Source: Botryllus schlosseri
Taxonomy: Eukaryota
DNA length: 64,000 nt
NCBI GenBank assembly: GCA_051294905.1
Contig: CM119372.1
Coordinates: forward strand, 28,088,001 to 28,152,000
Reading direction: 5' to 3'
The translations under genes and the position numbers were made by a program. This document shows positions 3,254 through 63,075 of the stretch, one piece after another. The notes under the pieces are model-generated. The model made no database searches. It was given only the letters and a program-made list of their open reading frames with translations, and was not told the DNA's origin. The stretch's first letter is position 1, and every line of letters starts with the position of its first letter.

Positions 3254-4196
3254 TGTTAGTCTTGAGCTGTCACCGTAGGCGAGGCAGGACCGCAGGAGGT
3301 AAAAGACGCCTTCGCTCCACCCCTTTGTTAGGCTTGCATATTGTGATGGCATGCGTTTCACCATACTCCGCATAAGAGCCAGTCGTCGGAAATCTATATG
3401 CAGGTATACTTCGAAAATATGGAGATATGCTTTCCGGGAACAGAACTCAACTAACTTCATAAACATCCTAAAAACAATTGCGGCCCACCGGATGGTTATA
3501 GTTTAACGATTGAGAGCCACTGAACTATAGCGTGTTAGGTCACTTCAGGCCTTCATCATCGGCATTCACCCATAACCAGAGGTGGTCAAAGTAGTCAAGA
3601 AAGCTACTCAACTAGAAGTAGAAGTAGCGACGAAAAAATATACTCAAGTACGAGTAGAAGTACTTCTTCCATAAGCCTCCTAAAACTACTTGAAGTAGAA
3701 GTAGAATTGTCTGACTATAAATCTACTTAAGTAAGTAAGTAGTTTTGAAAACAGTCTTAATTCGTTCGCATCGACCGTCAAAAGCTGCGAATTGAGCTAT
3801 GCGAAAGGTGCAGCGAGCTTTATTCGTGTTGATGCATCCCAGGAGGTATCAATTTTCGACGGAATAAGCATTCTTTCGCATCATCGGATGCAATTTATAG
3901 TATTGATAGGAAAATGCGACACTAACCCTTTGTTTACTAGAAGACCCGTTTCAGAGAATATCATGGCATGGCGCCGTACCCCAAATTATAAGGCCCAAAG
4001 TTCAGGTGAAGAGCAAAACGTAGAAGTTGTATCGAAATCGGTTTCATCACTTTGCACGAGGAGTATACGTTAATAACAAATATTGTGAATCGAAAAAGTT
4101 ATTTTCAGCGTAGCTTTATTTTCAGAAAATACAGGCAGCTTCTTTGAGGTACAGAACTTCAATATACAATTGAAAAGTATATTCATATTGAAATGA

Positions 4197-4240
4197 ACCC
4201 GAATATTTTCGGCTGACACTCGTCAGGGGTAATCGTCAGC
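4197..4240 (-). ncRNA. Minimal type-I hammerhead ribozyme motif
   Basis: Minus strand reads GCUGACGAUU ACCC CUGACGA G UGUCAGC C GAAA AUAU UC GGGU: conserved core boxes, 4-bp stem I, 1-bp G-C stem II, palindromic AUAU loop III, UC cleavage site. Confidence 0.7.
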
Positions 4241-4388
4241 AACTAGTAGAGAATTCGAAAGAACAGCGTATATCAACAATCGTAACACAAAATATGACGT
4301 CCCCAGCACGATACGAGAGCGTTCAATGTACTATTTTTAGATGTTACGATTGTTGATATACGCTGTTCTTTTGAATTCTCTACTAGTC

Positions 4389-4432
4389 GCTGACGATTAC
4401 CCCTGACGAATGTCAGCCGAAAATATTCGGGT
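4389..4432 (+). ncRNA. Second (inverted) hammerhead motif copy with stem II G->A change
   Basis: gctgacgatt accc ctgacga A tgtcagc c gaaa atat tc gggt; A at 4410 breaks the G-C pair. Confidence 0.5.
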
Positions 4433-6058
4433 TCATTTCAATATGAATATACTATTCAATTAAAACACAGGCATTACTACACTTGCTTTCATGCTTCAAC
4501 ATGTATGTTTTGCAGACAAAAGAACTGAAAGTAATTAGAACTCAAAGTATGATACTCAGAATTGAAAGTGAAATACAAATACCACTTCTAAAAAGCGGCA
4601 AATGTATTTCATATCTTTTGTCCATACAGCTTCAAAAGTGATCTGCTAAAACAGGTGGAACGCTCGAAAAAGCCGGAACTTTCAGATTAGCAGGACACGT
4701 CATGGGCTGCTAGATTACGACATGATAGTTAATTGCAAGATTGCGAAACCGTTGTTTCAAACGTTACGGTGGGCCATATTTACTGTGATGAAATGTTTGA
4801 TATGGGCGACAATGCGGTGTGAGCGGTACCAAGCAATCTGGTACCTAAAATATATTGACTGATACTTTCGTGAAAACATATCTGTCACTCCATAACTACT
4901 GTGCAGTGTGCACGAAGCGCAACAAAATTGCAGGGCTTTATTTCACTTTTATGAATATTAAATGTTGGTACTCCGTGAAAACAGCCCCGACATTCCTCAG
5001 GCTATCTTTCGTATTGGGAGATCAAACTACTTCTAATTGACAAACTGTAAATAGCGAAAAGTGAGTAAGTAGATCACAAAATATTACGAATTAGAAGTAG
5101 AAGTAGAAGTAGAGAGAATCAAATCTACTTGAGTAAGTACCAGAAGTAGAGGAAAACTACTGGAGTACTTCCAAAAAGTAGAAGTATTTCGTTACTGACC
5201 ACCTCTGCTAATAACAGGACGCTGTTTGCCACTGATCAAAAATATTGTATCCAGTGATCCACCAATAGCTGCGACATGGTCTGTCGATGTCGTAGCGGGA
5301 CAACCATAATAATCCCCCCTCAAAAATACGTCTCAGGCGCGGCAGCCCGACCTCCCGGCCAGAGTCTAAACTCAAACTATAACAATAATAGATTACTTGA
5401 AATTCGAAAATTAAGTGCCTGACTGCCATCCGGCTGAACTGAAGTTGCAGGTCAGACTACGTCGTCCACCTATAAGAACGTGTTTTTGTGTCAGAATCGG
5501 AGGCGCGAAGCCTGGTGCCCGACTTGTAGTCTTGTACTGGATCGCAGCCGATCAATGCCAGCGATGGCGGTGACTCGATTTCTAAACACTAAGTTGATAT
5601 ATTGGCCATGGACTGGACCGGACTGACGGCAAACTCTGCTGGCGATGTCCTAGACTCTTATTCGGTATCGTCGCGATCATTCGCACCCATTTTCAACAGT
5701 CAAAAATCGATATCACACTTTTGTCGAGGCCGTCGCCCGGTGATTTCGCCCAAATGTATTCTCAAATTGACTTTGAATTATAGTATTATTCGCATTTTAG
5801 TCGGTTTACACATGCTAAAAAAAGTCTTTCTGCTATTCTGCGCTTTCCACCGATTCATATGTTCAACTTACGTTCGTATTCTACTGCTTTCATAACAAAG
5901 CCGCTGTTCAGCTTGAACAGTGACTATTCATTTTAGCCCAATTCGTCTAAATTCGTAAGCTATGACTTTGCGCTCTTTCGGCGTTGGAAAGCTATAATCG
6001 ACTTTGTCTATGAAGGTGAACGACCGGATGTTTTAAGCTATATCCAACATCTGGAGTA

Positions 6059-15700: not shown

Positions 15701-18700
15701 CTAACACCGCATTGTGAATAAAACAAATTGAGCATATAAATATATCAACGTAGGCTATATCGTTATGTAAAAACCTCTGGATTAACTGTACAGCCTAACT
15801 GTATTCAATCGGCCAACCTTGGTATATTTTTCCAATTCCGTTGCGCGCGAATAAAGGTGCTGTTGCTAGAATAGAGCCCATATGACTCGCAATACAATAT
15901 AATATACTATTATGTATATAGGCTTTATAATAGAGTAACTCATTGAAAAACAAGGGTATGGATATTCGGTAACATTTTGGCCGGATTTTACAGGTCCGAC
16001 TCGCGAACGATAAAAAGGTTTGAATACAGCCCGCGACTCAAGCTGAGTTTAACACCCCTGGTCCATAGCTTTGTTCACAAAGAAGCATTGTCATCCAACA
16101 TGTCCACATTCAAGTCGAAATACAAACCATTTCTACTGAACAAATACTAGATAATCCCATAGTTTACCGGACCACGACCTGACATATCTATCTCGCTTTT
16201 CGACGCATGCCAAATTTTTACTTTTCATTTAGTGTGCATGCCTCCTTTTTTACATCGCCTGGGTCAGGTGCGTGTCTGATTTCGAAGACTACTAAATTGA
16301 ATTGTGACCATTTTCATTACTGTCACAATAGCGACTGCATTCCAAAATAACCGTTCAATCTGAGTGTACAGTAAACCCAGCAAGCGTCTTGACTTCCAAC
16401 GCTACTCAGGCGGACCGAAGCGTATGAGGTTTATATATGGGCTCCTTCTCCCCTGTCGCTTGTTGATACGGCGACAAAAAAGTTTAGAAAAAGACCCAAG
16501 GAAAGAGGTACAAGAAGACAGCCGAATAAATATTGACAAAAGTCACTATAAGCAATATGCGAATGCCAAATTAAGAAACCTCAACTGGTCTTTTCGCGGT
16601 ACTCGTATTTATTTATTATGTCATATTGTGTCTTGATTGGATGTAAACATATTATCTGACGATAACAAAACGTTCGAAACATCTCGTCCGAAATGGCTAA
16701 TGCACGATACGTGTGTCATTTCTTTCGAAAAGATATCGATGGTGCCACGACGAAATAAATCCCATTTTACATCTTCTCCAAGAATTTGCTATCAAATAGT
16801 CATCCAAAATACAAGAATCAACTTACATGGGGTTCATATTTTCTATATCCATAACCTCCTGAAGTACGGTACCGTTAAGATGCTCCGATTTTTTGTGTAT
16901 CTCAATAAGAGAGTTGATAATTTGTTTCGTACGTCGAATGCTTGCTTTCAAGCCCTGTATATAACACAGTATTGGGATATCAATAAATTTTAAGGGTTCG
17001 AGGATGTTTGAAAATGTACGATTGTAAATATGAATTCAACATTTCCTCTCCAAGTCACTCGTATACGAACAAAAACTCACTATTGACGCTTTCAGCTTCC
17101 AGTAGCGCCCGGTATTTTCTGCCGCGATGAGTGCCATCATTCTACGCGTGCCATAAAATAATTCAGTCATATCCGACGGGACATCCTGTCTCAGCAAACC
17201 TGAATTAATATGTCAACGCGGTCGGAAGATGGGCAAACAAATTTAACCATCACACTTTTGAAATCATTCAATCTTCGTTACGGACAATTATCCGTGTAAA
17301 TCTTCTGATAGCCCATCATGTCGATTAATACGACATAACAGCGATGCTCATCGTCATGATGATTTGCGGGCTATGTCACAGATCTCTTAATTACGATATA
17401 ATTTTCCATGTAATGACTGGAGACATGGGCCTAAGATGAAGATCGCGTGGAGAAAGTGCAACAGTGAAGACATAGACGGGCCATAAAGTTTGTAACGTGT
17501 TAGGAAACGATGACGCACGATGGCTCGTTATATGGAGTTACCATCTTTGAGATCCTAAAAAGGAGACACTTTTTAAAAATTCTGAAAGCTATAGCACCGG
17601 ACAAGAGATCTGGTGATTTCGACAATTTTTCGACCGATAGTACTGTGTTGACTAAAACCAAAGGTCATCACTTCGGCCCGATTTACCCGATTTTTCACGA
17701 AACTCTCACTCACGTTCGCTGCGTCGGGGTCGCGTTTTTGATCGCATTTTATTCCTTTTTACAGAAAAAGAGGACAAATTCCAAAATAAGAGGACATTTA
17801 GGCGTCCTCCGAGGACACTTTCAATTTATTGAAAAAAGAAGACAAATCCTCCTAAAAGAGGGCGTATGATAACCCTATCGTTATATGACGACTGATCTAG
17901 TTGTCACAGAGATATATAGCTGCAGCAAGAGTGCAATGATGTATTTAAAAAATATTTTCGCTGCAGTTTGGCGATTTTCGGAAAAAATGGGTGCTGCCAT
18001 ATTTTCCAATTTTATTTCTAATTTGAGAGCACATCTTATTCAGAGCGAAATTCCCCTTTAAGAAACTGTACTTGGTCGCATCCTCCTATTTGTTAATCAC
18101 ATCGCACTGTGTCTTGTGCGATCACGCCTGTATATGTCGACGGCAACCCACTTCACCTCCTTTTCTCGCGGCTTCCCGCTGACATACTGTCTTCGAAAAC
18201 CCAGGGGAGATTAAGTGATCTGCAGTAAATGCAGAAAACAAATTTCAATGACAGATTGAAATCCGAAGAAAATGGTTACCCCTGGGATATCATTGAACTC
18301 TTACAGCGCACGAACCGCACCGGTAAGGTGGTGCCCGGCGCTTTATAGTCAACGAAAATCTCGTGTCATCCTCTGCTAACAGTTAGATTGACTGCGAGAA
18401 AAGATATGTTACATATATGGTGAATTGAAACCTAGTAACTCTAATATAGTGGTTCTTGACCGGTATTCCATGGAACACCAGGGGTTTTGTTGGACAGTCT
18501 CATGGTTTCTATGGAGGTCAAGACACGCCCTGAACTCATACATACATACCTATATGATAATTAGGGCAAGTTTTTGTTGCACTAAAATGGCGAGAAAGTT
18601 GCATTTAATTTCAACAAAAGTTGCAGTAAAATGTTGTATTTATAATTTTTGTTGAATTATTAGGGTTTGGGATACTCGAAAGGCTCCGTTGTATAACCTA

Positions 18701-38800: not shown

Positions 38801-41800
38801 GCCATTACCGTGCCAAGACGCACCAACAAATAGTGAAGTTTAGGCTTACATGGGTCTCCTAGTGTTCGGCATCGAGAAAACCGTGGCCATAACTTCGATA
38901 TATATGTCTAATCGTCCATCGGTGCCTAAATGGCTGGCGCCGAATCTCGCTGTCCTGTACCCCACAGAACAAATACCATATCAAAGAGAAAAATTATTTG
39001 TCAGTGAAGAAATAGCAATTTGGAATCGTGTAAGTCTTTTAATTTGGAGCGCTTGGGCGCTTTCAATGTCTAATCACTATATAACAGACAGTAGGTCACG
39101 AAATATTAATATGCAACCAAGTAATTATACCAACATACCCGCCCGAATATGTTTAATTACTAATGATTACATGCCTAAATTTTCCCAGACGACACGTCAC
39201 TCAGCTCTAACAAAAAATCCGAGAATTCTTAAAGGATTTAAAATTTATAGCAATATATGCAATTACTAATATCATTGACCGTGACCGATTCTTTCACGAA
39301 TGATAGGAAATTATCGCGCTCGTTGCAATTAGGTGACATAAACTCTCTGCCTACACTGAGTAGGATGAATGTGCTCACACGTACTGGTAGAAACATCCAT
39401 TCAACTGTCGTGCCTTGAGGGACGACCCCCACAGAAATTGGGTTTATAACCCTATGGGTGACCCAGGGTCAACTTTTTTTCTCTTTTTTTAGGGGGACTG
39501 ACGAAGTGCTCTTTTGGCTCTGATTTCATGAATGGCTGGGTGTGGCTGTTGCCAGGTGTTTGGTGCAGTGCATTGTATTCGTAGTACCCAAAGTAACCCA
39601 CGTCTGGTAGTACTGGGCAATGAGCAAGTTAGCACGACAAGTTGCTTGGCTTGACTGCGTCACACTTCTTATCTCGCTATTGTCGAAGAAAGGAATATTA
39701 TTCGAGTTAGTGTGGTCGGTTAAATCCACGGCCTTCGGCGGGAAAGACTGAATACAACTCTCGGCGGTAGCACGTCTATCTGGGCAAGGTAATTTTACCT
39801 CGACTCAGCAGAATCACTGCCATAAAATCATATGGATACCATCATGAACGTAATTAGGTACAATCAAAACCATCAAAACTTCGCTCTCTAGTACCATATG
39901 CTTGCAAAAACGGTTGTACACGTTACATTTTTGGTTGATTTCAATTTTTGAAAGTCCTCCAGTCCGCAAATATTTTTTGAACTTTTACCGCTCCGCGAGG
40001 TGGAAAAGGTTGAGAACCACTGGGCTAAACAGTCCTGTCTCACGGTATTGGAATCTGTTTTCGACATTTGCACCACTTTGTAGTGACATTAAGTGACAAA
40101 GATACACCCACTATTTAGGCCGCCGCCGATTAAGCGATCAAACTATGCGTACCTCAACGGAGTCTACTTTTGTCACCTACTTCATACCTTCAATTTTGGT
40201 TCCAGTTAAAGTACTTGTGACCAGAGGTGGCCAGTAACGAAGTACTTCTACTTTTTGGAAGTACTCAAGTAGTTTTCCGCTACTTCTGGTACTTACTCAA
40301 GTAGATCTGTTTTTCTCTACTTCTACTTCTACTTCGTAATATTTTGTGATCTACTTACCTACTTTTCGCTATTTTCAGTTTGTCACGTAGAAGTAGTTTA
40401 ATACCCCAATACGAAAGATAGTCTGAGGAACTTCAGGGCTGTTTTCACGGAGTACCAACATATAATATTCATAAAAGTAAAGTAAAGCCCATAAATTTTG
40501 TTGCGCTTCGCGCACAGTAGTTATGGAGTGACAAATACGTTTTCCCGAAAGTATCAATGAATATAATTTAGGAACCAGATTGCTTGGTTCCGTTCACACC
40601 GCATTGTCGCCCATATCTAATATTTCATCACAGTAAATATGGCCCACCATAACGTTTGAAACTGCCGATTCGCAATCTGGCAATTACCTATCATAACGTA
40701 ATCTAGCAACCCATGACGTGTCCTGCTAATCTGGAAAACCCGGCCTTTTTCAACGTTTCACCTGTTTTAGCAGATCACCTTTGAAGCTTTATGGACAAAC
40801 GACATGAAATATATTTTCCGCTTTTTAGAAATGGAATTTGTATTTCACTTTCAATTCCGAGTATCATACTTTGAGTTCTAATTCCTTTCAGTTCTTTTGT
40901 CTGCAGAACATACATGTTGAAGCATAAAAGCAAGTGTAGTAATGCTTCTATTTTCCGAAAATATAGATACACTAAATATGAATTTTACGATCCACTATTT
41001 TTGTTATTAACGTATACTATTCGCGCTAAAGTGTTGAAACCGTATCCGATCCAACTTCTTCGTATTGCTCTTCGCCTAAACTTGGGGCCTTTTAATATGG
41101 GGTAGGGCGCCATGCCATGATATTCTGTAAAACGGGTCTTCTAGTAAACAAAAGGTTAGTATCGCATTTTCATATTATTACTATAATTTGCATCCCATGA
41201 TACGAAAGAATGCTTATCCTGTCGAAAATTGATACCTCCTAGGATGCATCAATGCGAATCAAGTTCTCTGCACCTTCCGCATAGCTCAGTCTGCAGCTTT
41301 TGACAGTCCATGGACTGTAATGCATGTGAACGAATTAAGACTGTTTTCAAAAGTACTTACTTACTTGAGTAGATTTTAAGTCAGTCAATTCTTCTCCTAC
41401 TTCAAGTAGTTTTAGGTAGATTATGGAAGAATTACTTCTACTCGTACTTGAGTAGATTTTTACGTCGCTACTTCTACTTCTACTTGAGTAGCTTTCTTGA
41501 CTACTTTGACCACCTCTGCTTGTGAAACGCCTTGGACATCGCTGCTTCTACTTGTAAATTGGTGAAAATTAACGGATTTATACTTTTACTGCTACATGGG
41601 TATCAACGCTGACTCCTTCGACCCCCTTCGCCGCAAAGCGTGGCGCATGTACTATTGAAAGTTATCACAAGTGTAGCTAGTTGCAAATGACCCTAAAAAA
41701 CATCATCTCACCCCAATACGACCCGGCAACGCTACCGCAGTCATCCTGATTCAGGGATGTATCGAACAGTTGACTTCTGACCGCGTACTTCGCCAATTCC

Positions 41801-44800
41801 GGACTATCAAAAATCGATGACCTGTCGGACTCCGCTATGGATCCCGCCCTCTGGAACGACACTCTCGAACTCCGTCGTGAAGTCACGCTTCGCCGTCTGT
41901 TAGAATTATAAGTGGCCGAATGTTCTCTCTTGAATCTACGGCGGGCTTTGGCCAACGCTGGTAGCATTCGACTCGGATGCAATGTCGGCCTCGGCATTTC
42001 CGCGAGCGAAACGGAGGACATGCGCTTGTTGCTTAGGCCGTCAACGGCAACTGTTGTACCGACGAGTCCGCCTTCCCTTATGAGTCTACTGCGAAGGGTC
42101 GATTTCGTGGATCCGTGAAGAATAAGGACGCGGCCTCTGGCTCTGTTATACCACTGTATTATGCGGCAGTAGATCAAAATCGGGAATGATATGTCCGGGT
42201 CTTTTCCGCTCCTTCTCGCCCACTGCCGCGCGAGAAGGTATTCGAAGCAGTCTTTGTGAAAATGTTCCACTACGATCTGAAAGAGCGAAATTAGTGTTTA
42301 TAATGTAGATGTGTGAGCGGATGGTACATTTACAACTAAATAGTTTCTTAGGTAAGTTCGAGAAATTCTAAAACACGCGCAATTTGGAGATGATATCCCG
42401 AAGTCAAAATATTTTCTATAATGAGACATTTCAACACCTACACAATCCCAGGTACATATTACATTTCTTACTCTCAGTAAACTCGCGGCACTCAATTTAT
42501 ATCAGATATTTGCAGCTTAAAATGCAGATTGATGCACTACAGAAAAAAGTAGCTAGAGTACGTTTTCAAGGCATAAAGAGCAGGAAACTGACTGCAAACA
42601 ATGTCGCTTTGAAAGTCGATCAATTTTGAACAACCCCAGCGTCCGGTTCTGACAAGGTTTATTCACTTCGGGGATGAGAAATGAACCTTGAGTAGGGATT
42701 TCTATTTAGATTTGAAGACAATGAGGGGCGGATTTTTATTTACGAATGATTTAAGTTGCATATGGAATTTCTAAATTGATAATTTTTATGCGCTTTCTAA
42801 AAAAAATCCAGTTATTAACGGATATGGACTTGGATTTGAACATCCTACGAAATGAATTCTGGACTTGAACTGGATGAGGATCTCAAATTTGGAACATGAA
42901 TTTAATACGAAGATACTAAATCACACATCTCTGATTTACATGGACAATTTCAATGAACATTTCCACTTTGGACTAGCAATTTTACATTTGTAGCCAGCCT
43001 CATTTTGCGTTAGTCGCGAAGATGCATCCTGTAATTTCTAATGCATGGCCAGAGCTGATTAACTGATGAAAGTATGTGAACTCTGGACCAAATATACTTT
43101 TAGAAACTATTCACTTGAGTACTTTCGGATCTTTCCTTTTCTACCTACACGTGAAGTAGCTTTGTCACGTCTTGGAAATTGCTACTTCCGCTAGCAATTG
43201 AGTGGAAATTATGTCCTTACTACTACCTTTACTTGGGTAGCAACGCTGATAACCTTGACCACGTGTGGTTACGATATACCTTGGAAATTGTTACTTACTA
43301 GTTACTACTTATCGGTAATTGAGTAGAGATTGACGGCATTTATCTACTCATATACCAAGACTGAGGACTTTGACCCTCTGCAAATTATAAGATTGCGTAG
43401 CAATGTCTTACATTCCACGGCAGCCTCCCCTTTCCATCTCTGACGCCGAATGACAGAATATTCGACTTCATCATAATCCGCAGTGCCGTAACGTTGCCTT
43501 TTTCACACGCTTCGTGCACCGGACACTTTTTCGATTCCTCGTGATCGCTACCGCTGCACCATTCTCTGGTCGGGTGGGTTCCGACCGGTTGATCCGGTCT
43601 GGCTCCGTATCGCAGCATGTTCTGTGCGAGTCCAGGGTAATCGAAATGTGCCGCTATGTGCAGCGCGACTCTTCGCTGATACTTTCGTTCCTCCCGGTCT
43701 CGCGACAGATAGGAGCCTACGATCTTTTCGTGACCTGGGAGAGAAATTGATTCAAATCGGATAGCCCAGCTCGGAGTAATGCGAAACCAGCAGTTACAAT
43801 ATTGCTATGCTGTGCTATAGATATCTGGGAGATAGGCGTCAGAATATGCAATACCAAGCTCGTTACTGTCGCACCTTTCAGCTTACTTTATACTTCCACT
43901 TGAAGTAGTTCCAACTAATAAGTTGCCTGTGAAATCATTCTTTCCTCAATTTCTGGTCAATAGCGTTTGGTATTTTTTTCATTACAGTGCTTAGTGTTAG
44001 ACCTTCGACGATTCATGTATATCCAACAGACCCTAAATATGGCTAATGCTGTGGTAACCAGGGCTTTGGAGCAGCCGTAAATTTGCATAGCATCAGCTCC
44101 GGCTCCGGAGCTTTCTTCTATCATACATTAGCTCCGGCTCCAGCTCCGGAGCCGCATTATCACCACTGCTCCGGTTCCGGCTCCGGCTCCGGCTCTGAAA
44201 ACTATCGAAGGTGTCTGTCTATATCAGGGGTGGGCATTGGGCAACCCGCGGCCTGCAGGCCATATGTAGCCCGCGAGAAGGTTTTGAGTAGCCCGCGAGC
44301 TAATTTCCTATTATATTGTCGAAATTCTATTATATTATCGAGATTGAATTGCTCAGATTGCGAACTTGCAAGGCCAACCAAAAATATAATTAGTATGGTC
44401 GCGACACTAGGGATGTTGATGACTAAAATTTCAGTTCAGACACATTGACAGATCCAGGGTCTAGCAAGTCACATTTTTTAGTAAATCGTCGTACATTACA
44501 ATAAACTAAAAAAGTAGTAAAATTTTTCTTCACGCTTCGTGTGTTTAATTGTCACACGATTTCTTTCTCTGTAGCCTACCCCCACCTGAAAAAATTCCAG
44601 ATTTAGCCGATTGAGTTAAGCTATATTATATTCGCGTTTGCCCTCACAGAAAGATCGTCGACGATGAAATGGGGGCACAAAATGATTGTCGTATATTAGC
44701 GGAAATCTTCGATATCGATATGTCCAGATGCCGAATAGTCCTGTCCTTGCAAACTGAGCCCAGCGGGTGGTATACAGTCGACCCACAATATACCCAAGTA

Positions 44801-47800
44801 ATAATAATATTAACTTTGAAAATTTTACGCGCCTGGCGCGGCTAGTGGGCAACGCACTCGTTCGTCAATTTCATGTGGCCCTTTAGCCGAAAAGGTTGGC
44901 CATCCCTGGTCTATATAGATTACTAATTTACCCGTAGGTTAGTTATCTATAGTAATCTAGAGTCTGTCAGGCGTCAGTAACATCGGATGCAGTAACGAAG
45001 ACATAGGTGCCGCCGTGCCGGCTTGTGACGACATAATGAATACTTAGTCAATGGTCGATAACATCATAGTTGCACCAGAACGCACTTTACTCACACTGGC
45101 ACTGTACTCGTTAACATAAAGTAATGCAGCTCAATTCAATCTATAAATGTGCGATTATTATTCAACTGTAACTTTAGTAAGAGCAATAAGGGCGGATATA
45201 ACGACGTGATCAATAGAAATTCGATTTGTACCAAATAGCCAATGGTTTGACGTTCGATCTTGGTGCACTCGCTACCAGTCCATCCGGTGTCGATCAAGTT
45301 TATCAGAATATAATATTTTCCCATTGAAACGAATCGAATAATCGAATTAAACACTGTGCCACGCACATTGCGCCATGCCCATAACGATTTAAACTATATG
45401 CACTATGCAGTATGCACATTACACATTTACAAGTCTACGAAACAGATGATTACAAATTGGAAATCGCGATTCAAATCAGTAATTTGTCTCCAACATAAAA
45501 TACCATGGGGTTTTGGGCTACTCTTTTGCCATCCCCTATTTACACTCGAAAATCCTTACTGGAGTGAATGACAATGATGCGCAGTAATGAATTCCAATTA
45601 GCATGCATAATTGCATACTCAATAACACTGTCCTATTTCGCAGCCCGAATAAAGAACCATCACGATAAGAACGAGTATTTGCTCATCCAATTCATAGCAA
45701 CGATGAGATGGAATTTCTCGGCTCGTGCTCGTCATATCGACATGTGCAACGAAATCACGTTTTTATCCTCTCTCCCATTTCGCGTAATACATAGTGATCA
45801 TTATTTTCGAACCGTATACAAATGGCCAACAAGGTTGTGCTGATGATGAAATTGCGGGTATGCCGAATACCCACAATATACACAGACATATTTCGCATAC
45901 CGAGGTTCGGCACTAACGTATGAAAATTGAACATATGACTGCTCTGCTGCTAAATCCCCAGGAACATGGTTAGTCGGAAAAGGAAGCGCCAAAGAGGAAA
46001 AGATTCTTAATTTCGCGAGGGCCCGCTGTTTAATTATGTGAACTCAGCAGATATGGTTGTTGCATATATAATAGTATCTTATGAAATACGTCGGAGCCGG
46101 AGCCACCCCTCAAATAACTGGCTCCAGCTCCGGCTCTGGCTCCGGCTGAATTTCATGTAGAGCTCCGGCTCCGGCTCCAGCTCCGGTAAAAATGCACGGC
46201 TGCGGGGCTCCGGCTCCGGGCTCCGGCTCCAAAGCCCTGGTGGTAACTACTTACGAAGCGACATTGGTGCGATTGTAGACTATTTTAAATCACTGACTGC
46301 TTAGCTAGAGTTTGTAGGGTAACCCAAAATATCATTCTCAATCCTAGGTATTATTATTTAGTATCTTCTGTTCAAAACATTGTTTCGCCATAGTCGGGAG
46401 TCAAGGACAAGATTGTTAGATACTAAAACCAATGTGTACCAATCTCCCAGCACAGTATATATAGTGTGTAGTAGGTTAGGCGATTTTTATCAGCTGATGA
46501 GTAGTTCCATTCGCTCTTTATGGGAATCTAGATGAAAATACTTATTAGACTAAAAGTATTTGTATAGAAAGACCAATATAATTTGTTCTCAATAATTTGA
46601 AGGTATAAACAGGGCTGTTTTCATTCATTGAATTCTATATTAATATTCTCGCTCCGTTCTCACTACATACATATCATCCCAACCTTTTAAAGACGCATTT
46701 ATGAATTCTTTCCATCCATCCCATATTTCAAGCTTCACGAGGGATCCGAGCTCCAAGCCGTAGTCTCCCATTGTTTTACAATCGTACAATTCCTTGAACT
46801 TGTCCACAGTGATGTCGTTGTATATTTTCGGTAACTTTTGAAGGGGTGGGCTGATTTGGCACAACCGGAATACCGAAACCGGCAGACCAGTTTTCGTTGA
46901 TACGAGAGAACGAATGTGACCGATGGAAGCCTGTGGTTGTTGTTGTTGGTGGTGGTTATTAAACGGAAAATTTGGAGGTAATCACCGATATGATGGCATG
47001 CATATCTAGGATCCGAAAATCTACCCAACGAGGAAGCTAACCTATGGGTATATTGTAATCGAGCTCACATTCGGTTGAACTTGGTGGGTAAGTCAACATC
47101 AAATCCAAAATTGTTATCTGCGATCTGCATTTTGGGAACTGCTAAAAGTAGGGTTCCATTTAAAACAAACGGTGTTTTGAAACACTTTGTTTAATACATG
47201 TTATAAACAGTGTTTTAAAAAAAGGCCTCTTCAAAAAAAAATTGTGCTTTTTTAAGTTGTAAAATTATGCAATCATTGAGCAAAAACTTTACAAAAAACA
47301 TGTTGCATGAGCCTACGGACAATAACCACCCAATGTGGCCGACGTATATCGATATGGGACGGTTGGAACACTCAAAATAGTCGGTTCAACAGCAATAGTA
47401 CATATATTTCGTCAAAGGAGCTTTATTTACCCTATTTTTTCAATTGTCAATGTCAACCCACTAGGACGTCACAATTGAATATTCGTGACGTCATGACTTT
47501 ACCAAAAACATAAAAAACAATAAAAAAAACATGTTTTAAATTAGGGCCATGTTTTAAACATGCTTGTTTTAAATTGATTTTTGTTTTAAATGCAACCCTA
47601 GCTAAAAGACTAATAATTTTTAAAATAGAATGAGCACGTAACTAAAGTATAGCGTCGTGCCGGTCAGCAAATATAACGATGAACAAAGTGCATGAAACAA
47701 AATTGCAGTTTAATTTGCGAATTCACTTGCGCAAAGAAAATCAATGCGGTTTAATCAGCATGAACAGAGATTTATTACATGGTTATGACTAGGGCGATTT

Positions 47801-50800
47801 TTTTTGACCTAAAAAACGCAAGATTTTGACCTGAAAAAACTGCATTTTGATCAAATTTTGACCTAACGTATGCAAATTAGATGTTTTCGCACATAATGTT
47901 AAAATTGTACTGCTTATCTTCATTTCTGGTTGGAACTGTCTGTGCTTACGCAGTAGTTTGGCCTGAAAACACGTTTTTGGCTTAAAAACTGACAAATTTT
48001 TACATGAAAAAAACTACTATTTTACTGAAATCTGGCCCCATGAAGAATTCCAGTAGTTACATCACGTATTATGGTAGAAATCATTAAGATTTGTTGTGGT
48101 ACAGCGAAAGATACTTTCCTACATTCTCGAGTAGAAAGTGCCTGTCCGTACTAAGTAGCTTGCCAAGAATGGAGAAAGATCGTTCGACAGCAGCAGTTGT
48201 AGGCCGACAACACTGAAGTTGTGCGTACACTGCTGGTGACACACGGTGTTGCTTCATTCCGAATATACGATTTACATCACAATTTTCCATCATGCGCTTC
48301 TTGATATAAGAACCATGCAATGACCAAGCAATCTTGCTTCAGTTAGCATATTGTTGCACGTTGACCATAACACCATGTCAACCTATTTGTTTCATCTGAC
48401 CCATTATGATTCATAAGGAGCAGACAATGGACCGTCTACAACGGTAGGCCTATAAAGTAAGCTCCTAAGCTGTAAAATATCAAATGATAAGTTCACCTAC
48501 AGTGCAAAATATACGATACAAACGAAATGCAGAGGTCAAATATTTTTTTGACTGTTCAAACAATTTTGACAAATTTTGCTAACGCTAACGCTAACGCTAA
48601 CGCTACAATTTTGACAAAATTTTGACAAATTTTGACATGTCAAAAAAAATCGCTCTAGTTATGACACATTGTTAGCGATCGCGCACCGGCATAATGCAGT
48701 CAAGATGCGGTAGGTGTCTTTAGATAAGAGCGGTCATTCAAGAAGAAAATAGAAAAAGGAGCTGCAGTTATGAGGATATTGAGATCGTGTCACGGTTAAA
48801 TTATAGCACCGAAAGATTGGGGACGTAATAATTAAAATGTATGCGAAGCGAGGTCGCAGTGCATTTTCTCGTGCCAATCACTGGCATCCGTAAGTTCATA
48901 TTATAAAATGAGTTTTATTATCACACTATAGCCTTAATTTAGCGGCAGCACTTATATTGCTGCTACGATTTGGAAAGAGTAATCACGTCTTTTGCAAGAT
49001 ATCACCAGAGGTGGTCAAAGTAGTCAAGAAAGCTACTCAAGTAGAAGTAGAAGTACTTCTTTCATAAGCAACCTAAAACTGCTTGAAGTAGAAGTAGAAT
49101 TTGCTGGCTTTAAATCTACTCAAGCAAGTAAGCAGTTGTGAAAACGGTCATAATACGTTCGCATGGACTTTCAAAAGCTGCAAATTGAGCTATGCGGAAG
49201 ATGCAGAGAGCTTCTTGTACAATGCATATTGATGCATCCCAGAAGGTATAAATTTCCGACAGCATGAGCATTCGATTGAATCATGAGATGAAAATGATAG
49301 TTTTGCTATGGAAATGAGACACTAATATTTTGTTTACTCAAACATCCCGTTTTAGAAAAAGTCATGGCATGTTCCCTCACGCATATTACGGTCTTTTTGG
49401 TTGGTCAAAGAGCAATACGGAGAAGTTGTACGGATGCGATGTTAACACTTTCCACGATTCGTATACGATGATAAAAAATATGGCGTAACGTAAAAATGCC
49501 ATATAGTGCAATTGTATTTTATGAAAAGAGACGGCAATGCTACACTTGCTTTTTAACTTAAACACATATGTTATCCAGACAAAAGAACTGAACGCTCAAA
49601 AAGTCAGAGCCCACTTTCCAGATTAGGACACGCCATGGGCTGCTAGATTACGATATGATGGGTAAATGCTAAATTGCGAAACGGTAGTTTCAAACGTTAT
49701 GATGGGCCATATGTACTGTGACGAAATATGTCATATGGGCGACTATGTTGTGCAATGCAACCTGCAACCCAAATAATATTCACTTTCGTGAAAACATATT
49801 TGTAACTCTAGATCTACTTGATGTGGAGCAAGACGGAAATTCTGGGACTTAAATTTTCTTAAAATTGAAAGTTGGAACTCCGTGAAAACAGCCCGAGAAT
49901 TCCCCAGTTTATCTTTCTAAATGGAGGGTTACACTACTTCTACTTGACAAACTGAAAAATAGCGAAAGTAAGGAAGCAGATAACTAAATATTATGAAGTA
50001 GAAGTAGCGATGATTCTAACTACTTGAGTAAGTACCAGAAGTAGAGGAAAACTACTTGAGTACTTCGAAAAAGTAGAAGTACTTCGTTACTGACCACCTC
50101 TGGATATCACTGACCATATTATCCAGTTGTTTTATGTAATTCAATATGCCGTCGATCTCTGATACTTACCGTTGATGGATGGATTTCCTCCATGATCTCA
50201 AGGATGTCGCCAGAGTATCCTAAGAATACTTTCAGTGATGGCTTCTTAATTACTTTGATCTCGCATGCCAGTGTTGCCCCAGAGTTTATGCTGATGTCTT
50301 GCAGTATCCATTCACCGTGGAGCGATGCACCTGTAAATTGTTCATTGGAAGGTAAGCAAGATTCCAGACGTACCATAGCGGTATCACGAACAGAGAAACT
50401 GAGCATCGTGGACATCATCCTTTGAATCTTGCCGGGATAGTTTGTGATAACAGCGGTAGTCCACCAAAGGATTTCGGTAACATTATGTAATACTTTGTTT
50501 TGTCCACTGCCGAACATATTTTCCTATATTTCGTCATGATGTTAGCGACTCAATGCTCCAGAAATTATCATTGTAACCCCTACTCTTCAGCACTGCGAGC
50601 ATCGATCACGGAGACATAATGTTAATTGTCGACGCATTAGGGAATCTCCGAGCTCTGCTATTATATTTGGAATAGTATACTTGTTATCGTAAGTTTCGAA
50701 TTCGTGTCTAGTTAATTTGAATCTCGTAACACCACACGTTTGTGTCCAAAACATATTGGGGACTATGAGATCACCATCTCCATCTACGCTTACAATTTTT

Positions 50801-59188: not shown

Positions 59189-60490
59189 CAGAGGTGGTCA
59201 CTAACGAAGTACTTCTACTTTTTCGAACTACTCAAGTAGTTTTCCTCTACTTTTAGTACTTACTCAAGTAGATCTGATTTTCACCACTTCTACTTTTACT
59301 TCGTAATATTTTGTGAGCTACTTACTTACTTTTCGCTATTTTCAGTTTGTCAAGTAGAAGTAGTTTAATCCTCCAATCAGGAAGATAGCCTGAGGAATTT
59401 CGGGGCTGTTTTCAAGGAGTATCAACATTCAATTTTCATAAAAGTTGAGTAAATCCCAGTATTTTCCTCGCGCTTCGCGCTCAGTGGATACAAAGTAACC
59501 AGTATGATTTCACGAGAGTATTGGTGAATATAATTTAGGTAGCGGGTTGGAGTGGTTCCGTTCACACCGCATTGTCGCCCTTCACAAATATGAAATATTT
59601 TATCACAGTTAATATGGCTCTTCATAACGTTTGAAACTGATGTTTCGCAATCTAGGATTTACTTATCATATCGTAATCTAGCAGTCCATGGCGTGTCTTA
59701 ATCTGGAAAAGTGGACTCGGACTTTTATTTAGTTTTAGAGCTGTTTTCGCATACCTCCCTTGAAACTTTCTGAACTAAAGACATGAAATACATTTTGCGC
59801 TTTTAGAAGTAGTATTTATACTTCACTTTCAATTCCCAGTATCATATACTCTGAGTTCTATTCAATATCAGTTCTTTTGTCTTGATAACATACATGTTGA
59901 AGTATAAAAGCAAGTGTAGTAGTAATGCCTTTAATTTCGGAAATAAAGCTACACAATATGGCATTTTTACGATCCACCATATTTTTTATTCACGTGTACT
60001 AATCGCGCAAAGTGTTTACACCGTATCCTATACAACTTCTCCGTATTGATCTTCGACTAAACTACGGGCCCTATAATATGGGGAAGTGCGCCATACCATG
60101 ATATTTTCTAAAACGTGCTGTTCGACTAAACATAGGATAAGTATCGCATTTCCATATCAATGCTATCATTTTCAAGCCATGATGCGGACGAATTCTTATG
60201 CTTTCGAAAATTGAATAGCCTACCTGGTATGCATCAGTATGAATCAAGATCGGCACCTTTCGCATAATAGCTCAATTTGCACCTTTTGACAATCCCTGCG
60301 TGCGAACGAATTACGATCGTTGTCACAACTACTTACTTACGTAGATTTGAAGTCAGTCAATTCTACTTCTACTTCAAGTAGTTTTAAGTTGCCTGTGGAA
60401 GAAGTACTTCTACTCGTACTTGAGTTGATATTTTCGTCGCTACTTCTACTTCTACTTGAGTAGCTTTCTTGACTACTTTGACCGCCTCTG
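59189..60490 (-). mobile_element. CAGAGGTGGTCA family hAT element
   Basis: TIRs; TSD tctaggct/cctaggca. Confidence 0.88.
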
Positions 60491-63075
60491 CCTAGGCATC
60501 ACACAAATATATTTTTGACACGATTGAAAGACTGAATTTCGGGACTAAAATCACTAGCCTAATACAAACGCTATACCAAAATTCTGACAACACAGTGTAC
60601 CTAAATTGAGCTCCTACAGAAAAAAAAAGACTAAAGTGGGCACTCAAGCAAGTGTGTCCTCTAAGTATTTACCTTTATACGCTAGAGCAGTGTCCGGGAA
60701 CCTGTGGCTCGCGAGCCATATATACCTTTTTTGGGTAAAGATATGGCTCTTTGCCAAAAGTTAATTTTTGTACGGAATTGATCAATATTGCAGAGACTTG
60801 TTAGTAGATTTTCCTCACGGCCAGAATAATTATTCTCGTGGCAGTATAAACATGCTTTGGAGAGGTAAAGACAATGCCGTCTTCAGATGTAGGAGCTCTG
60901 ATCTTTTCAAAATCCTCAAATTTACGTTACCGTCGCGCCGGCGACCAATATCACTCGCGAATTAGAGGTACCCGAATCGAAATCTTGGATTGCGCAATAC
61001 CCTGATTAATCGAAGAGCATAGCAGACATGGCGACGCCAATATCACAATGCAGTTTTCAAATGCGCATTGTTTCCTGATTCACGGCGCGAAATGAACTAT
61101 CCTGGACGTAACATTTACAATTACAAACAGCGCCATAGCTATCCACGTTCTTGATTGGTAAGTATCTCCGCGGTAAAATGTGCGCGTGCAGCGCAAAGTC
61201 ATATTACCGCCGAAGACTTTGAGAATTGAGAAGTCGATCAATATTTAGATTTTCGGAATCAGTGTGACAGTTACATTTGATAATTATCAGTTTTAATAAA
61301 TTTTAAGCTATTTACGATAAATTGCGTTATCAATGGTGAGGCTTGGCCCGACTGTGCCTTACCTTTCGATTCGAGCTTTATTTTCTAACAATAAATACCA
61401 GTTTTTACAAAGAAAATGTGGTATACAATACGGATCCCATGTAGTGAGTTCGCATTAGTGCATTAGTGCTATCATGACGTCACGAATTTTCAATTGTGAC
61501 GTAGCAGTTGATTGGCTTGTATGACTCTTTGGGAGTTAAAATGGAAAAAAATAGGGCCAATATGGCTCTTAGCACAAAAAAAGTCCCCGACCCCTGCGCT
61601 AGAGGCCGAACCGATAGCAGAAAGAATAGGGAAAAATAGAAACGTAACAGGAATAAGGATAGGAAAGCACGAAGTGAAGATACAACAGTTCACAGACGAT
61701 GTTACCACACTCACGAAAGATTTCGAATCGGTAAAGTGGGTGCAGGAAGAGTTCAGATTACAGCGAGCCGTAAGCGGCCAAGAACTGAACGAAAACAAAA
61801 CCGAGATCTTCCAACTTAATATCCTGAAAAATCATATTAAACCAGGAATAATAGTAGTGGGACAATACATGGAAGAAACCAAAAAAGAAGAAATCTGGTA
61901 TAAAACTACGCAAGTATAATAAGAAGGAAATTATACGAATACAGTAAAAGAGACCTCAGCTGGTATAGCAAACAGCTAATACTCAACACCGTGCTGACGT
62001 CTAAAATCATACACCAAGCGAAGACAAGCACACCCAGCAACGATATGATAGCAACTCTAAACAAACTATTCTTCAACTTTGTGTGGCAGCCTGAAAAAAT
62101 TGAAATAGTAGCAATACAGAAACTAACCAAACATAAAAAGAAGGAGGGGGGAAATACCGCATTTAGAGGCAAAAACTAAAACACGAAAACTCGAAAAAAA
62201 TGGAATACTGGCGAAATTAGACGAACCAGCAGAATTTTGGCACCACCACGAACTAAACCTATTAGGACCGACTATCAGGAAATGGAACAAAAATCTTCTC
62301 ACAAATAATATGCCACACAATACAGAATTAACAGAAGAATGGAGAAGCATGATGGGAATCTATGAAGACCAGGAATGGGAAATCGAAGAATGGTTAAGAA
62401 TGCTTAAGCAACGCATAAAGAAATATGCCTTGCGACCAAAAAACTCTTCGAGGTGAAGAACACCAAAGCCGCAAATTGGAGGCAAATACACCATCCATGA
62501 ACCTAAAAGATTTACTAAGTAATAGAGAAAAAGTAACTACAACTACCGAATCGCAAATGAATGCTACCTCTTCGGAGCAAAGAGTAAAGAAAAATCTTTA
62601 TTAAACACAAGATCAGGGGACATAGCAATCGCCTAGTGCAGGAAATGCGGAAACCATCTGGAAACAGTGAAACACATTGTATACGATTGCTTCACAGCGA
62701 CAAAGATACTCGAAAAGCTGAGTCGCATCACTGATGGGAATCAAATTGAACTAAAAGAAGAAACTATCATAAAGAACGAAGAAACCAAAAGAGAGCAAGC
62801 TAGAATAATACTCGAAATATATAAACAAAAAATGATACAACATAGGAAAAAATTAGATCAAGGAAATCAGATGGAACAAAATAAAGAAGTAGTCAAGGAG
62901 ATCTACAATCAAACACGTAGAACTCTGAAAAGTAGACTAGAAATACCAAATGAGCTAACAAAAGAACTAAATGAACTTAAACTTGCGTTGAACTCACCTT
63001 GAATACTTTACGTTTCTTTCACAAAAAGAAATAGAACTGAAATAAACACAAAAAAGAAAACTATGAAAACTATGA
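60491..63075 (+). mobile_element. Decayed 5'-truncated non-LTR retrotransposon (L1/Tx1-like ORF2: RT + C-terminal CCHC-type motif)
   Basis: LNFGTKITSLIQTLY..KQVCPLSIYLYTLE|AEP..IQQFTDDVT..SGQELNENKTEI; CRKC..ETVKHIVYDC; frameshifts and stops; A-rich 3' end. Confidence 0.88.
60688..61596. mobile_element. hAT MITE inserted into the LINE RT
   Basis: Perfect TSD cgctagag. Confidence 0.85.

What the first reader, a model, noticed from the sequence alone, without database searches (positions are those of the whole stretch)
4197..4240. Hidden minimal hammerhead ribozyme with a built-in loop-II pseudoknot
Seen: the minus strand reads GCUGAC-GAUU-ACCC-CUGACGA-G-UGUCAGC-C-GAAA-AUAU-UC-GGGU. This has both catalytic boxes, a 4-bp stem I, a single G-C stem II, a palindromic AUAU loop III and a UC cleavage site. 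The 5' GCUGAC is perfectly complementary to GUCAGC in loop II. Established: minimal type-I hammerheads with palindromic tetranucleotide stem III loops occur in Penelope-like element pLTRs and are thought to cleave as dimers. Inference: this is a self-cleaving RNA motif stabilised by a 6-bp tertiary pairing.
Basis: partly seen in the sequence, partly recalled or inferred. Interest (0 to 1): 0.8.

Follow-up and report, generated by a model that had tools for sequence, protein, structure and literature searches.

The report
Pseudoknotted hammerhead in Penelope retroelements
This 44-base motif is the hammerhead-shaped end signal of a jumping gene with over 2,500 identical copies in this genome, and related jumping genes keep, through matched base changes, a six-base brace that replaces one of its stems and likely lets it cut itself, although cutting is untested and this particular copy is probably inactive.

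Summary
Confirmed. Window 4240-4197 (minus) reads as described. It lies in the pseudo-LTR of a young Penelope-like retroelement (PLE): 2,539 exact genomic copies; full-length units carry motif, an 860-aa reverse-transcriptase ORF, motif. The window copy is a 325-bp truncated, inverted stump (4137-4461, 11-bp target duplication) inside another repeat; its second arm has lost G10.1, and read-through would lock both arms in a 120-bp hairpin, so it is probably inactive in place. The pseudoknot holds up: across 17 diverged elements on a protein tree there are 12 different 6-mer pairs, 0 mismatches in 102 cells and at least 12 two-sided changes. Stem III is an exact palindrome in 15 of 17, as for dimer-cleaving PLE hammerheads. 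Cleavage is not shown: the predicted monomer fold is inactive and RNA-seq shows no ends at the cut. A 1-bp stem II plus 6-bp pseudoknot is known from other hammerheads (Perreault 2011; Zhan 2024), but PLE hammerheads are described as lacking tertiary contacts; I could not read Lünse 2017, which may already cover it. This scan noted the same motif three times on other DNA of this genome. New variant of a known kind.

The parts
4197..4240 (-). Type I hammerhead motif with 1-bp stem II and 6-bp pseudoknot; identical to the family majority
4235..4240 (-). Pseudoknot 5' strand (GCUGAC), ending 8 nt before C3
   Evidence: covariation
4212..4217 (-). Pseudoknot 3' strand in loop II (GUCAGC)
4220..4226 (-). 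Core box CUGACGA (C3-A9)
4202..4210 (-). GAAA box and palindromic stem III (A15.1..U16.1 = AAUAUU)
4200..4201 (-). Predicted cleavage site (after C17, UUC triplet); inferred
   Evidence: hammerhead numbering; no RNA ends seen there
4184..4186 (-). AUG matching the start of the element's ORF, 14 nt after the predicted cut
4137..4347 (-). Long arm of the PLE stump: ORF end, pLTR, motif and 31-nt tail; 90% identical to full-length element L062
4342..4461 (+). Short inverted arm (120 nt, no tail), overlapping the long arm by 6 nt
4389..4432 (+). Second copy of the motif, G10.1->A at 4410 removes the only stem II pair
4126..4136 (+). Left target-site duplication (11 bp)
   Evidence: single copy at empty sites near 40.9 kb and 59.9 kb
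4462..4472 (+). Right target-site duplication (10 of 11 identical to the left)
3571..5207 (.). Host repeat with terminal inverted repeats (MITE-like), into which the stump inserted; copies at 40221-41524, 49001-50103, 59189-60491 lack the insert

Best explanation
The motif is the pLTR hammerhead of a young Penelope-like retroelement family, with stem II cut to one G-C pair and a six-base pseudoknot from just upstream of stem I into loop II, and it likely self-cleaves after UUC, probably only as a dimer of two tandem copies. Shown: location between ORF end and ORF start of full-length elements, copy number, invariant core letters, two-sided changes in the pseudoknot and in stem I across families, palindromic stem III. 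Inferred: the pseudoknot helix takes the place of helix II and holds stems I and II parallel, as in the solved PK hammerhead; the 6-nt palindrome pairs between two motifs of a tandem transcript (units 2,692 bp apart occur); the cut falls 14 nt before the AUG and would release unit-length element RNA; the element's own protein or another chaperone may be needed, since the isolated RNA is predicted to fold into two core-blocking hairpins. The copy in the window is a truncated fold-back stump and is probably inactive where it lies.
For: Full-length element motif-ORF-motif, 860 aa, RVT_1 E 7.8e-9; GIY-YIG hits in 9 of 34 aligned homologues; tandem units at 2,692-bp spacing. Alignment A2 (22 rows, 3 misregistered by MAFFT and kept): pseudoknot 85.6% paired, 5 of 6 pairs with two-sided changes, slid controls 20-40%; all 4 stem I pairs with two-sided changes. 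On a protein tree of 17 elements: 12 pseudoknot types, 0 mismatches of 102 cells, at least 12 same-branch two-sided changes, swapped partners pair fully in 17 of 132. Tally not picked by pairing: 31 of 47 distinct ORF-end motifs pair 6/6, control windows 0 and 1 of 47, shuffles 1.4%. Pseudoknot-to-C3 distance 8 nt in 11 of 17. Stem III exact palindrome in 15 of 17, three different palindromes. Precedent: 1-bp stem II + 6-bp pseudoknot cleaves at >1.2/min and needs the pseudoknot (PMC3088659, passages); PK hammerhead 16/min (PMC11300833); 1-bp helix II without tertiary contact about 0.01/min (PMC13725137, passages).
Against: No cleavage assay. Predicted monomer fold is two inhibitory hairpins (-10.5 kcal/mol; pseudoknot pairs about 0.13, stem I 0.001). 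The AAUAUU dimer helix is predicted at only -0.2 kcal/mol against -11.2 for an off-register dimer. No pile-up of RNA starts or ends at the predicted cut in 2 raw-read runs. PLE hammerheads tested so far cleave weakly or only with protein, and are not needed for insertion in vitro (PMC4209133, PMC11167929). 16 of 47 ORF-end motifs pair 5/6 or less (several loci were fetched because their loops were mutated). One metagenome family has U3 in the core and several have U17.
Confidence: 0.72

Rival explanations
1. The folded motif is real and selected but works mainly as a structure (protein-binding, translation-start or reverse-transcription signal); cleavage is slow or incidental.
For: In the Anolis element hammerhead mutants did not change insertion in vitro and no RNA-seq ends were found at the site (PMC11167929, parts 1-2). 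Same blank here. The motif sits 3-20 nt before the AUG in 8 of the 9 elements (of 17) where the AUG could be placed.
Against: Catalytic letters stay invariant or nearly so across families only 45-67% alike in protein, and U16/H17 is kept; a binding site would not need them all.
Confidence: 0.17
2. The upstream 6-mer is an on/off switch: it frees the core from a hairpin that loop II forms with CUGAC, rather than building the active fold.
For: The core-blocking hairpin is the predicted ground state in this family and can form 5 pairs in 9 of 17 elements.
Against: It drops to 3 pairs in four elements and 0 in one while the pseudoknot stays intact; it shows no two-sided change (though the core cannot vary); fixed spacing and length fit a tertiary helix.
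Confidence: 0.08
3. The pairing is a by-product of a short duplication of the core's first letters (CUGACGA occurs twice in this family) with no function.
For: The upstream 7-mer equals the core box in this family; copies within the family drift neutrally.
Against: At least 12 two-sided changes and no mismatch on the tree; in several families the upstream strand no longer resembles the core yet still pairs.
Confidence: 0.03

Closest known systems
Minimal type I hammerheads in pLTRs of metazoan Penelope-like elements (Cervera and de la Peña 2014, PMC4209133; main text parts 1-2 of 4 and supplement parts 1-2 of 3 read)
   Same: Type I topology, place in the pLTR, short stem I, G10.1-C11.1, palindromic stem III implying dimers, thousands of dispersed truncated copies, inverted pairs 100-700 bp apart.
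   Different: All 56 representatives in their Fig. S3 have helix II of 3 bp or more and an extra base after A9; no tertiary contact was found, and later reviews say these motifs lack one (PMC6155905, PMC7761336, passages). Here helix II is 1 bp and loop II pairs with the 5' leader.
Pseudoknotted hammerheads, incl. the 1-bp stem II metagenome ribozyme (Perreault et al. 2011, PMC3088659; passages read)
   Same: Single stem II pair plus 6-bp pseudoknot holding stems I and II; spacing-sensitive; pseudoknots reported in types I, II and III.
   Different: The tested 1-bp example is a type II metagenome ribozyme; it is not a dimer-type retroelement motif with a palindromic 2-bp stem III.
PK hammerhead, PDB 8YDC (Zhan et al. 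2024, PMC11300833; parts 1-2 of 6 and passages read)
   Same: Helix II replaced by a 6-bp pseudoknot, closed by G10.1-C11.1 next to the A9-G12 pair.
   Different: 8YDC has helix IV and an A-rich minor-groove triplex; here only 7-11 nt lie between the pseudoknot strand and C3, leaving no room for them, and helix III is a self-complementary stub.
Small stem III hammerhead variants of PLEs that cleave as dimers (Lünse, Weinberg, Breaker 2017; title seen in reference lists only, paper not held)
   Same: By title: PLE association, dimer cleavage.
   Different: Unknown; whether it describes the 1-bp stem II and pseudoknot could not be checked.
PAc Poseidon element hammerhead of Anolis (Frangieh et al. 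2024, PMC11167929; parts 1-2 of 4 read)
   Same: pLTR hammerhead at the ORF start; insertions end at two positions defining a tail.
   Different: There the cut is 26 nt after the start codon; here it is predicted 14 nt before it.

Membership tests
Hammerhead ribozyme, type I | Core C3 U4 G5 A6 N7 G8 A9 / G12 A13 A14 A15.1 / U16.1 H17 | tested here: met
   exact in this family
Hammerhead ribozyme, type I | Stems I, II, III closed next to the core, ends in stem I | tested here: met
   Stem I with two-sided changes in 4 of 4 pairs, stem II G-C in 21 of 22 rows (G-U in 1), A15.1-U16.1 in 19 of 22 (3 misregistered rows)
Hammerhead ribozyme, type I | Match to an Rfam hammerhead model | tested here: not met
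   No hammerhead family at E<=10; models expect a full stem II and III
Hammerhead ribozyme, type I | Self-cleavage after H17 | not testable with these tools
   RNA-seq lay gave no ends at the site, which does not decide it
Pseudoknotted hammerheads (Perreault 2011) | Watson-Crick pairing of loop II with a strand beside stem I, kept by covariation | tested here: met
PK hammerhead of the 8YDC / pistol-like type | Helix IV presenting the pseudoknot strand and an A-rich triplex linker | tested here: not met
   Only 7-11 nt between pseudoknot strand and C3, mostly taken by stem I
Metazoan PLE minimal hammerheads (Cervera 2014) | In the pLTR of a PLE | tested here: met
Metazoan PLE minimal hammerheads (Cervera 2014) | Palindromic positions 15.2-16.2 / loop 3 | tested here: met
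   15 of 17 exact palindromes
Metazoan PLE minimal hammerheads (Cervera 2014) | Long helix II with an extra base between 9 and 10.1 | tested here: not met
   1-bp helix II, G10.1 follows A9 directly
EN+ Penelope-like element | Single ORF with RT and C-terminal GIY-YIG endonuclease between pLTRs | tested here: met
   RVT_1; GIY-YIG profile hits 9 of 34 homologues but not P0001 itself; VVYEY..GYVGRT motif seen in the C-terminus
EN+ Penelope-like element | Tandem/inverted 5'-truncated insertions with a one-sided 30-40 bp tail | tested here: met
   Window arms differ by a 31-nt tail; copy ends cluster at 31-33 and 67-68 nt after the cut; description in PMC8557442 (passages)
Penelope/Poseidon clade | No CX2-5CxxC linker before the endonuclease; placement on an RT tree with named references | tested here: inconclusive
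   No such linker is visible in P0001; no tree with named reference elements was built

The most novel reading that the evidence does not exclude
An invertebrate PLE lineage carries an undescribed, intrinsically fast pseudoknot hammerhead that is gated only by pairing of its palindromic stem III: it senses a tandem copy in the same transcript and cuts just before the AUG, making the uncapped, unit-length RNA that is translated and reverse-transcribed. It would be the first PLE hammerhead active without protein and a direct handle on what these ribozymes do.
Probability: 0.25. Interest if true: 0.72.

Novelty: new variant of a known kind. Interest (0 to 1): 0.48.

Why it matters
What the hammerheads of Penelope-like elements do is an open question, partly because the tested ones barely cleave and are said to lack tertiary contacts. 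A family with a covarying pseudoknot, intact tandem full-length copies and thousands of recent insertions gives a clean test with ready-made compensatory variants. It also shows a class of motifs that Rfam models miss and that descriptors requiring a helix II would likely miss.

Tried and rejected
Rfam scans: no hammerhead hit. RNA-seq lay on the full-length element: reads mostly run on into host sequence (96% and 65% in the two raw-read runs), no start/end pile-up at the cut, no intron joint; no listed holder is on record as RNA: no evidence either way. A lay on the window locus itself was not obtained, so expression of this copy is open. Within-family conservation test: core no better kept than flanks, uninformative. 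Viral contigs: no relative by protein; 10 pattern matches, none with a PLE ORF hit and none with a convincing stem I by eye. Prokaryote genomes: 2 fragments without motif. Upstream CUGACGA as a second core: not conserved. Helix IV as in 8YDC: no room. Third window core match at 16656-16679: chance level. A long-stem-II hammerhead in L191/L194 is a different, ordinary type and was left out of the counts. Five A2 rows (L218, L233, L313, L130, L310), which have imperfect pseudoknots, and L226 and L231 had too little ORF for the tree and are not among the 17; they are in A2. Literature searches for a PLE pseudoknot hammerhead found none; Lünse 2017 and its supplements could not be seen and may bear directly on novelty; Fig. 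S7 (descriptor) of PMC4209133 was not read.

Full report
Observation. The two core boxes alone are not beyond chance in 64 kb (3 matches, 2.13 expected) and Rfam has no hammerhead hit at E<=10. A second copy lies inverted at 4389-4432 (+), with G10.1 changed to A; the two belong to 120-nt arms that are 97% complementary.

What it sits in. The 44-nt motif has 2,539 exact copies in the 495-Mb genome and its 31-nt core 3,493; reversed controls gave 0. Locus L062 holds a full unit: motif, an 860-aa open frame, motif, 2,692 bp apart. The protein matches RVT_1 (E 7.8e-9); 9 of 34 aligned homologues match GIY-YIG, P0001 itself does not reach the threshold. Many copies are 99-100% identical at the protein end and some are tandem at 2,692 bp. 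This is a young endonuclease-bearing Penelope-like element (PLE), likely Penelope/Poseidon because no CX2-5CxxC linker is visible (criterion from PMC8557442, passages); no tree with named references was built. The window copy spans 4137-4461: a long arm (4347->4137, 90% identical to L062, with a 31-nt tail) and a short inverted arm, flanked by an 11-bp duplication (4126-4136, 4462-4472) that is single at two empty sites of the host repeat. This is the usual truncated-inverted PLE insertion. Any transcript through it would pair the motif with its own complement, and no same-strand partner lies in the window, so this copy is probably inactive (inference).

The pseudoknot. Relatives were collected by protein from metagenomes (80 loci kept of 90) and by core patterns that do not include the upstream strand from the own genome. 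In alignment A2 (22 rows, three misregistered by MAFFT and five with imperfect pairing, all kept) the six pairs are 85.6% paired, 5 of 6 show two-sided changes, 0 of 500 shuffles reach the paired fraction or covariation score (64 of 500 reach the count of pairs), and slid controls give 20-40%. Stem I shows two-sided changes at all 4 pairs. For the 17 of 23 candidate loci with enough ORF for a tree, register-corrected pairs give 12 distinct types, 0 mismatches in 102 cells, at least 12 same-branch two-sided changes by parsimony, and swapped partners pair fully in only 17 of 132 cases; these loci were chosen by me as family representatives, and deep nodes of the tree are weakly supported. A tally not chosen by pairing took every ORF end with 260 nt downstream: 124 of 129 have a core, 117 with 9-10 nt between the boxes (spacing partly forced by my patterns); of 47 distinct motifs 31 pair 6/6, 10 pair 5/6, 6 less; control windows 0 and 1 of 47, shuffles 1.4%. 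The strand ends 8 nt before C3 in 11 of 17, range 7-11. Stem III is an exact 6-nt palindrome in 15 of 17, of three kinds. The homologous AUG could be placed in 9 of 17 and lies 3-52 nt after the predicted cut, 14 nt in this family.

Results against activity. The lone RNA is predicted to form two hairpins that bury both core boxes (-10.5 kcal/mol); the folding program cannot model the pseudoknotted state, but the pseudoknot duplex (-8.1) is stronger than the core/loop duplex (-4.7), while the dimer helix is weak (-0.2) against an off-register dimer (-11.2). RNA-seq from two raw-read runs shows mostly read-through of stumps and no ends at the cut. Within the family the core drifts like the flanks, as expected after insertion.

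Mechanism. Most likely (0.72) the active RNA folds as a type I hammerhead whose helix II is replaced by the pseudoknot, with stem III completed between two copies in a tandem transcript, possibly helped by the element's protein, and cuts just before the AUG. Rivals: mainly structural role (0.17), on/off switch (0.08; the blocking hairpin is full in only 9 of 17 and absent in one), chance duplication (0.03).

Known work. Cervera and de la Peña 2014 (PMC4209133; text parts 1-2 of 4, supplement parts 1-2 of 3) describe PLE minimal hammerheads with long helix II; all 56 rows of Fig. S3 have 3 bp or more. Reviews say they lack tertiary contacts (passages). Perreault 2011 (passages) showed a 1-bp stem II plus 6-bp pseudoknot cleaving at over 1.2/min; Zhan 2024 solved a PK hammerhead with the same G10.1-C11.1 closure but an extra helix IV; viral type I motifs with 1-bp helix II and no contact cleave near 0.01/min (passages). 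Frangieh 2024 found protein-assisted cleavage, not needed for insertion in vitro. Eight searches found no PLE pseudoknot hammerhead, but Lünse et al. 2017, the most relevant paper, is not held, so novelty is about even odds. Three earlier notes of this scan report the same motif on other DNA of this genome; one pointed me to Zhan 2024.

Verdict. A real, selected RNA structure; each ingredient is known, the combination in an animal retroelement may be new and is directly testable. New variant of a known kind; interest 0.48.

Noticed in passing
L140, L149, L155, L159, L163, L171, L176-L180, L184, L186 (after ORF end): A metagenome PLE family has U at core position 3 with G8 kept (U3-G8 wobble) and U17, in every copy where the motif was found; L141 has U3 with A8.
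   Followed up: partly
G000-wide, e.g. L205, L230, L221, L312: At least five sister PLE families (45-67% protein identity to P0001) share the architecture with an AGCU loop III; 1,101 pattern matches; tandem full-length units at 2,778 bp in L311.
   Followed up: yes
A2 columns 14 and 31-32: The base right after the pseudoknot 5' strand is G in 16 of 17 elements and the first base of the 3' strand is always G; a non-canonical cap of the pseudoknot helix is possible.
   Followed up: no
window 3571-5207, 40221-41524, 49001-50103, 59189-60491: MITE-like repeat family with terminal inverted repeats, four copies in the window; the first hosts the PLE stump.
   Followed up: partly
L030:1200-1900: Another stump of the family lies next to what looks like a coding exon, probably in an intron; the family's pLTR is common in host transcripts.
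   Followed up: no
window 43385-43804 (-), 46640-46981 (-), 50119-50523 (-): Open frames that look like exons of a host gene (ankyrin-like and ubiquitin-like stretches by eye, recalled labels, not searched).
   Followed up: no
window 61512-63002 (+): Broken frames resembling a non-LTR retroelement reverse transcriptase end (by eye, not searched).
   Followed up: no
L191/L194:1219 (+): An ordinary long-helix-II minimal hammerhead with CG stem III, of the type Cervera and de la Peña describe.
   Followed up: no
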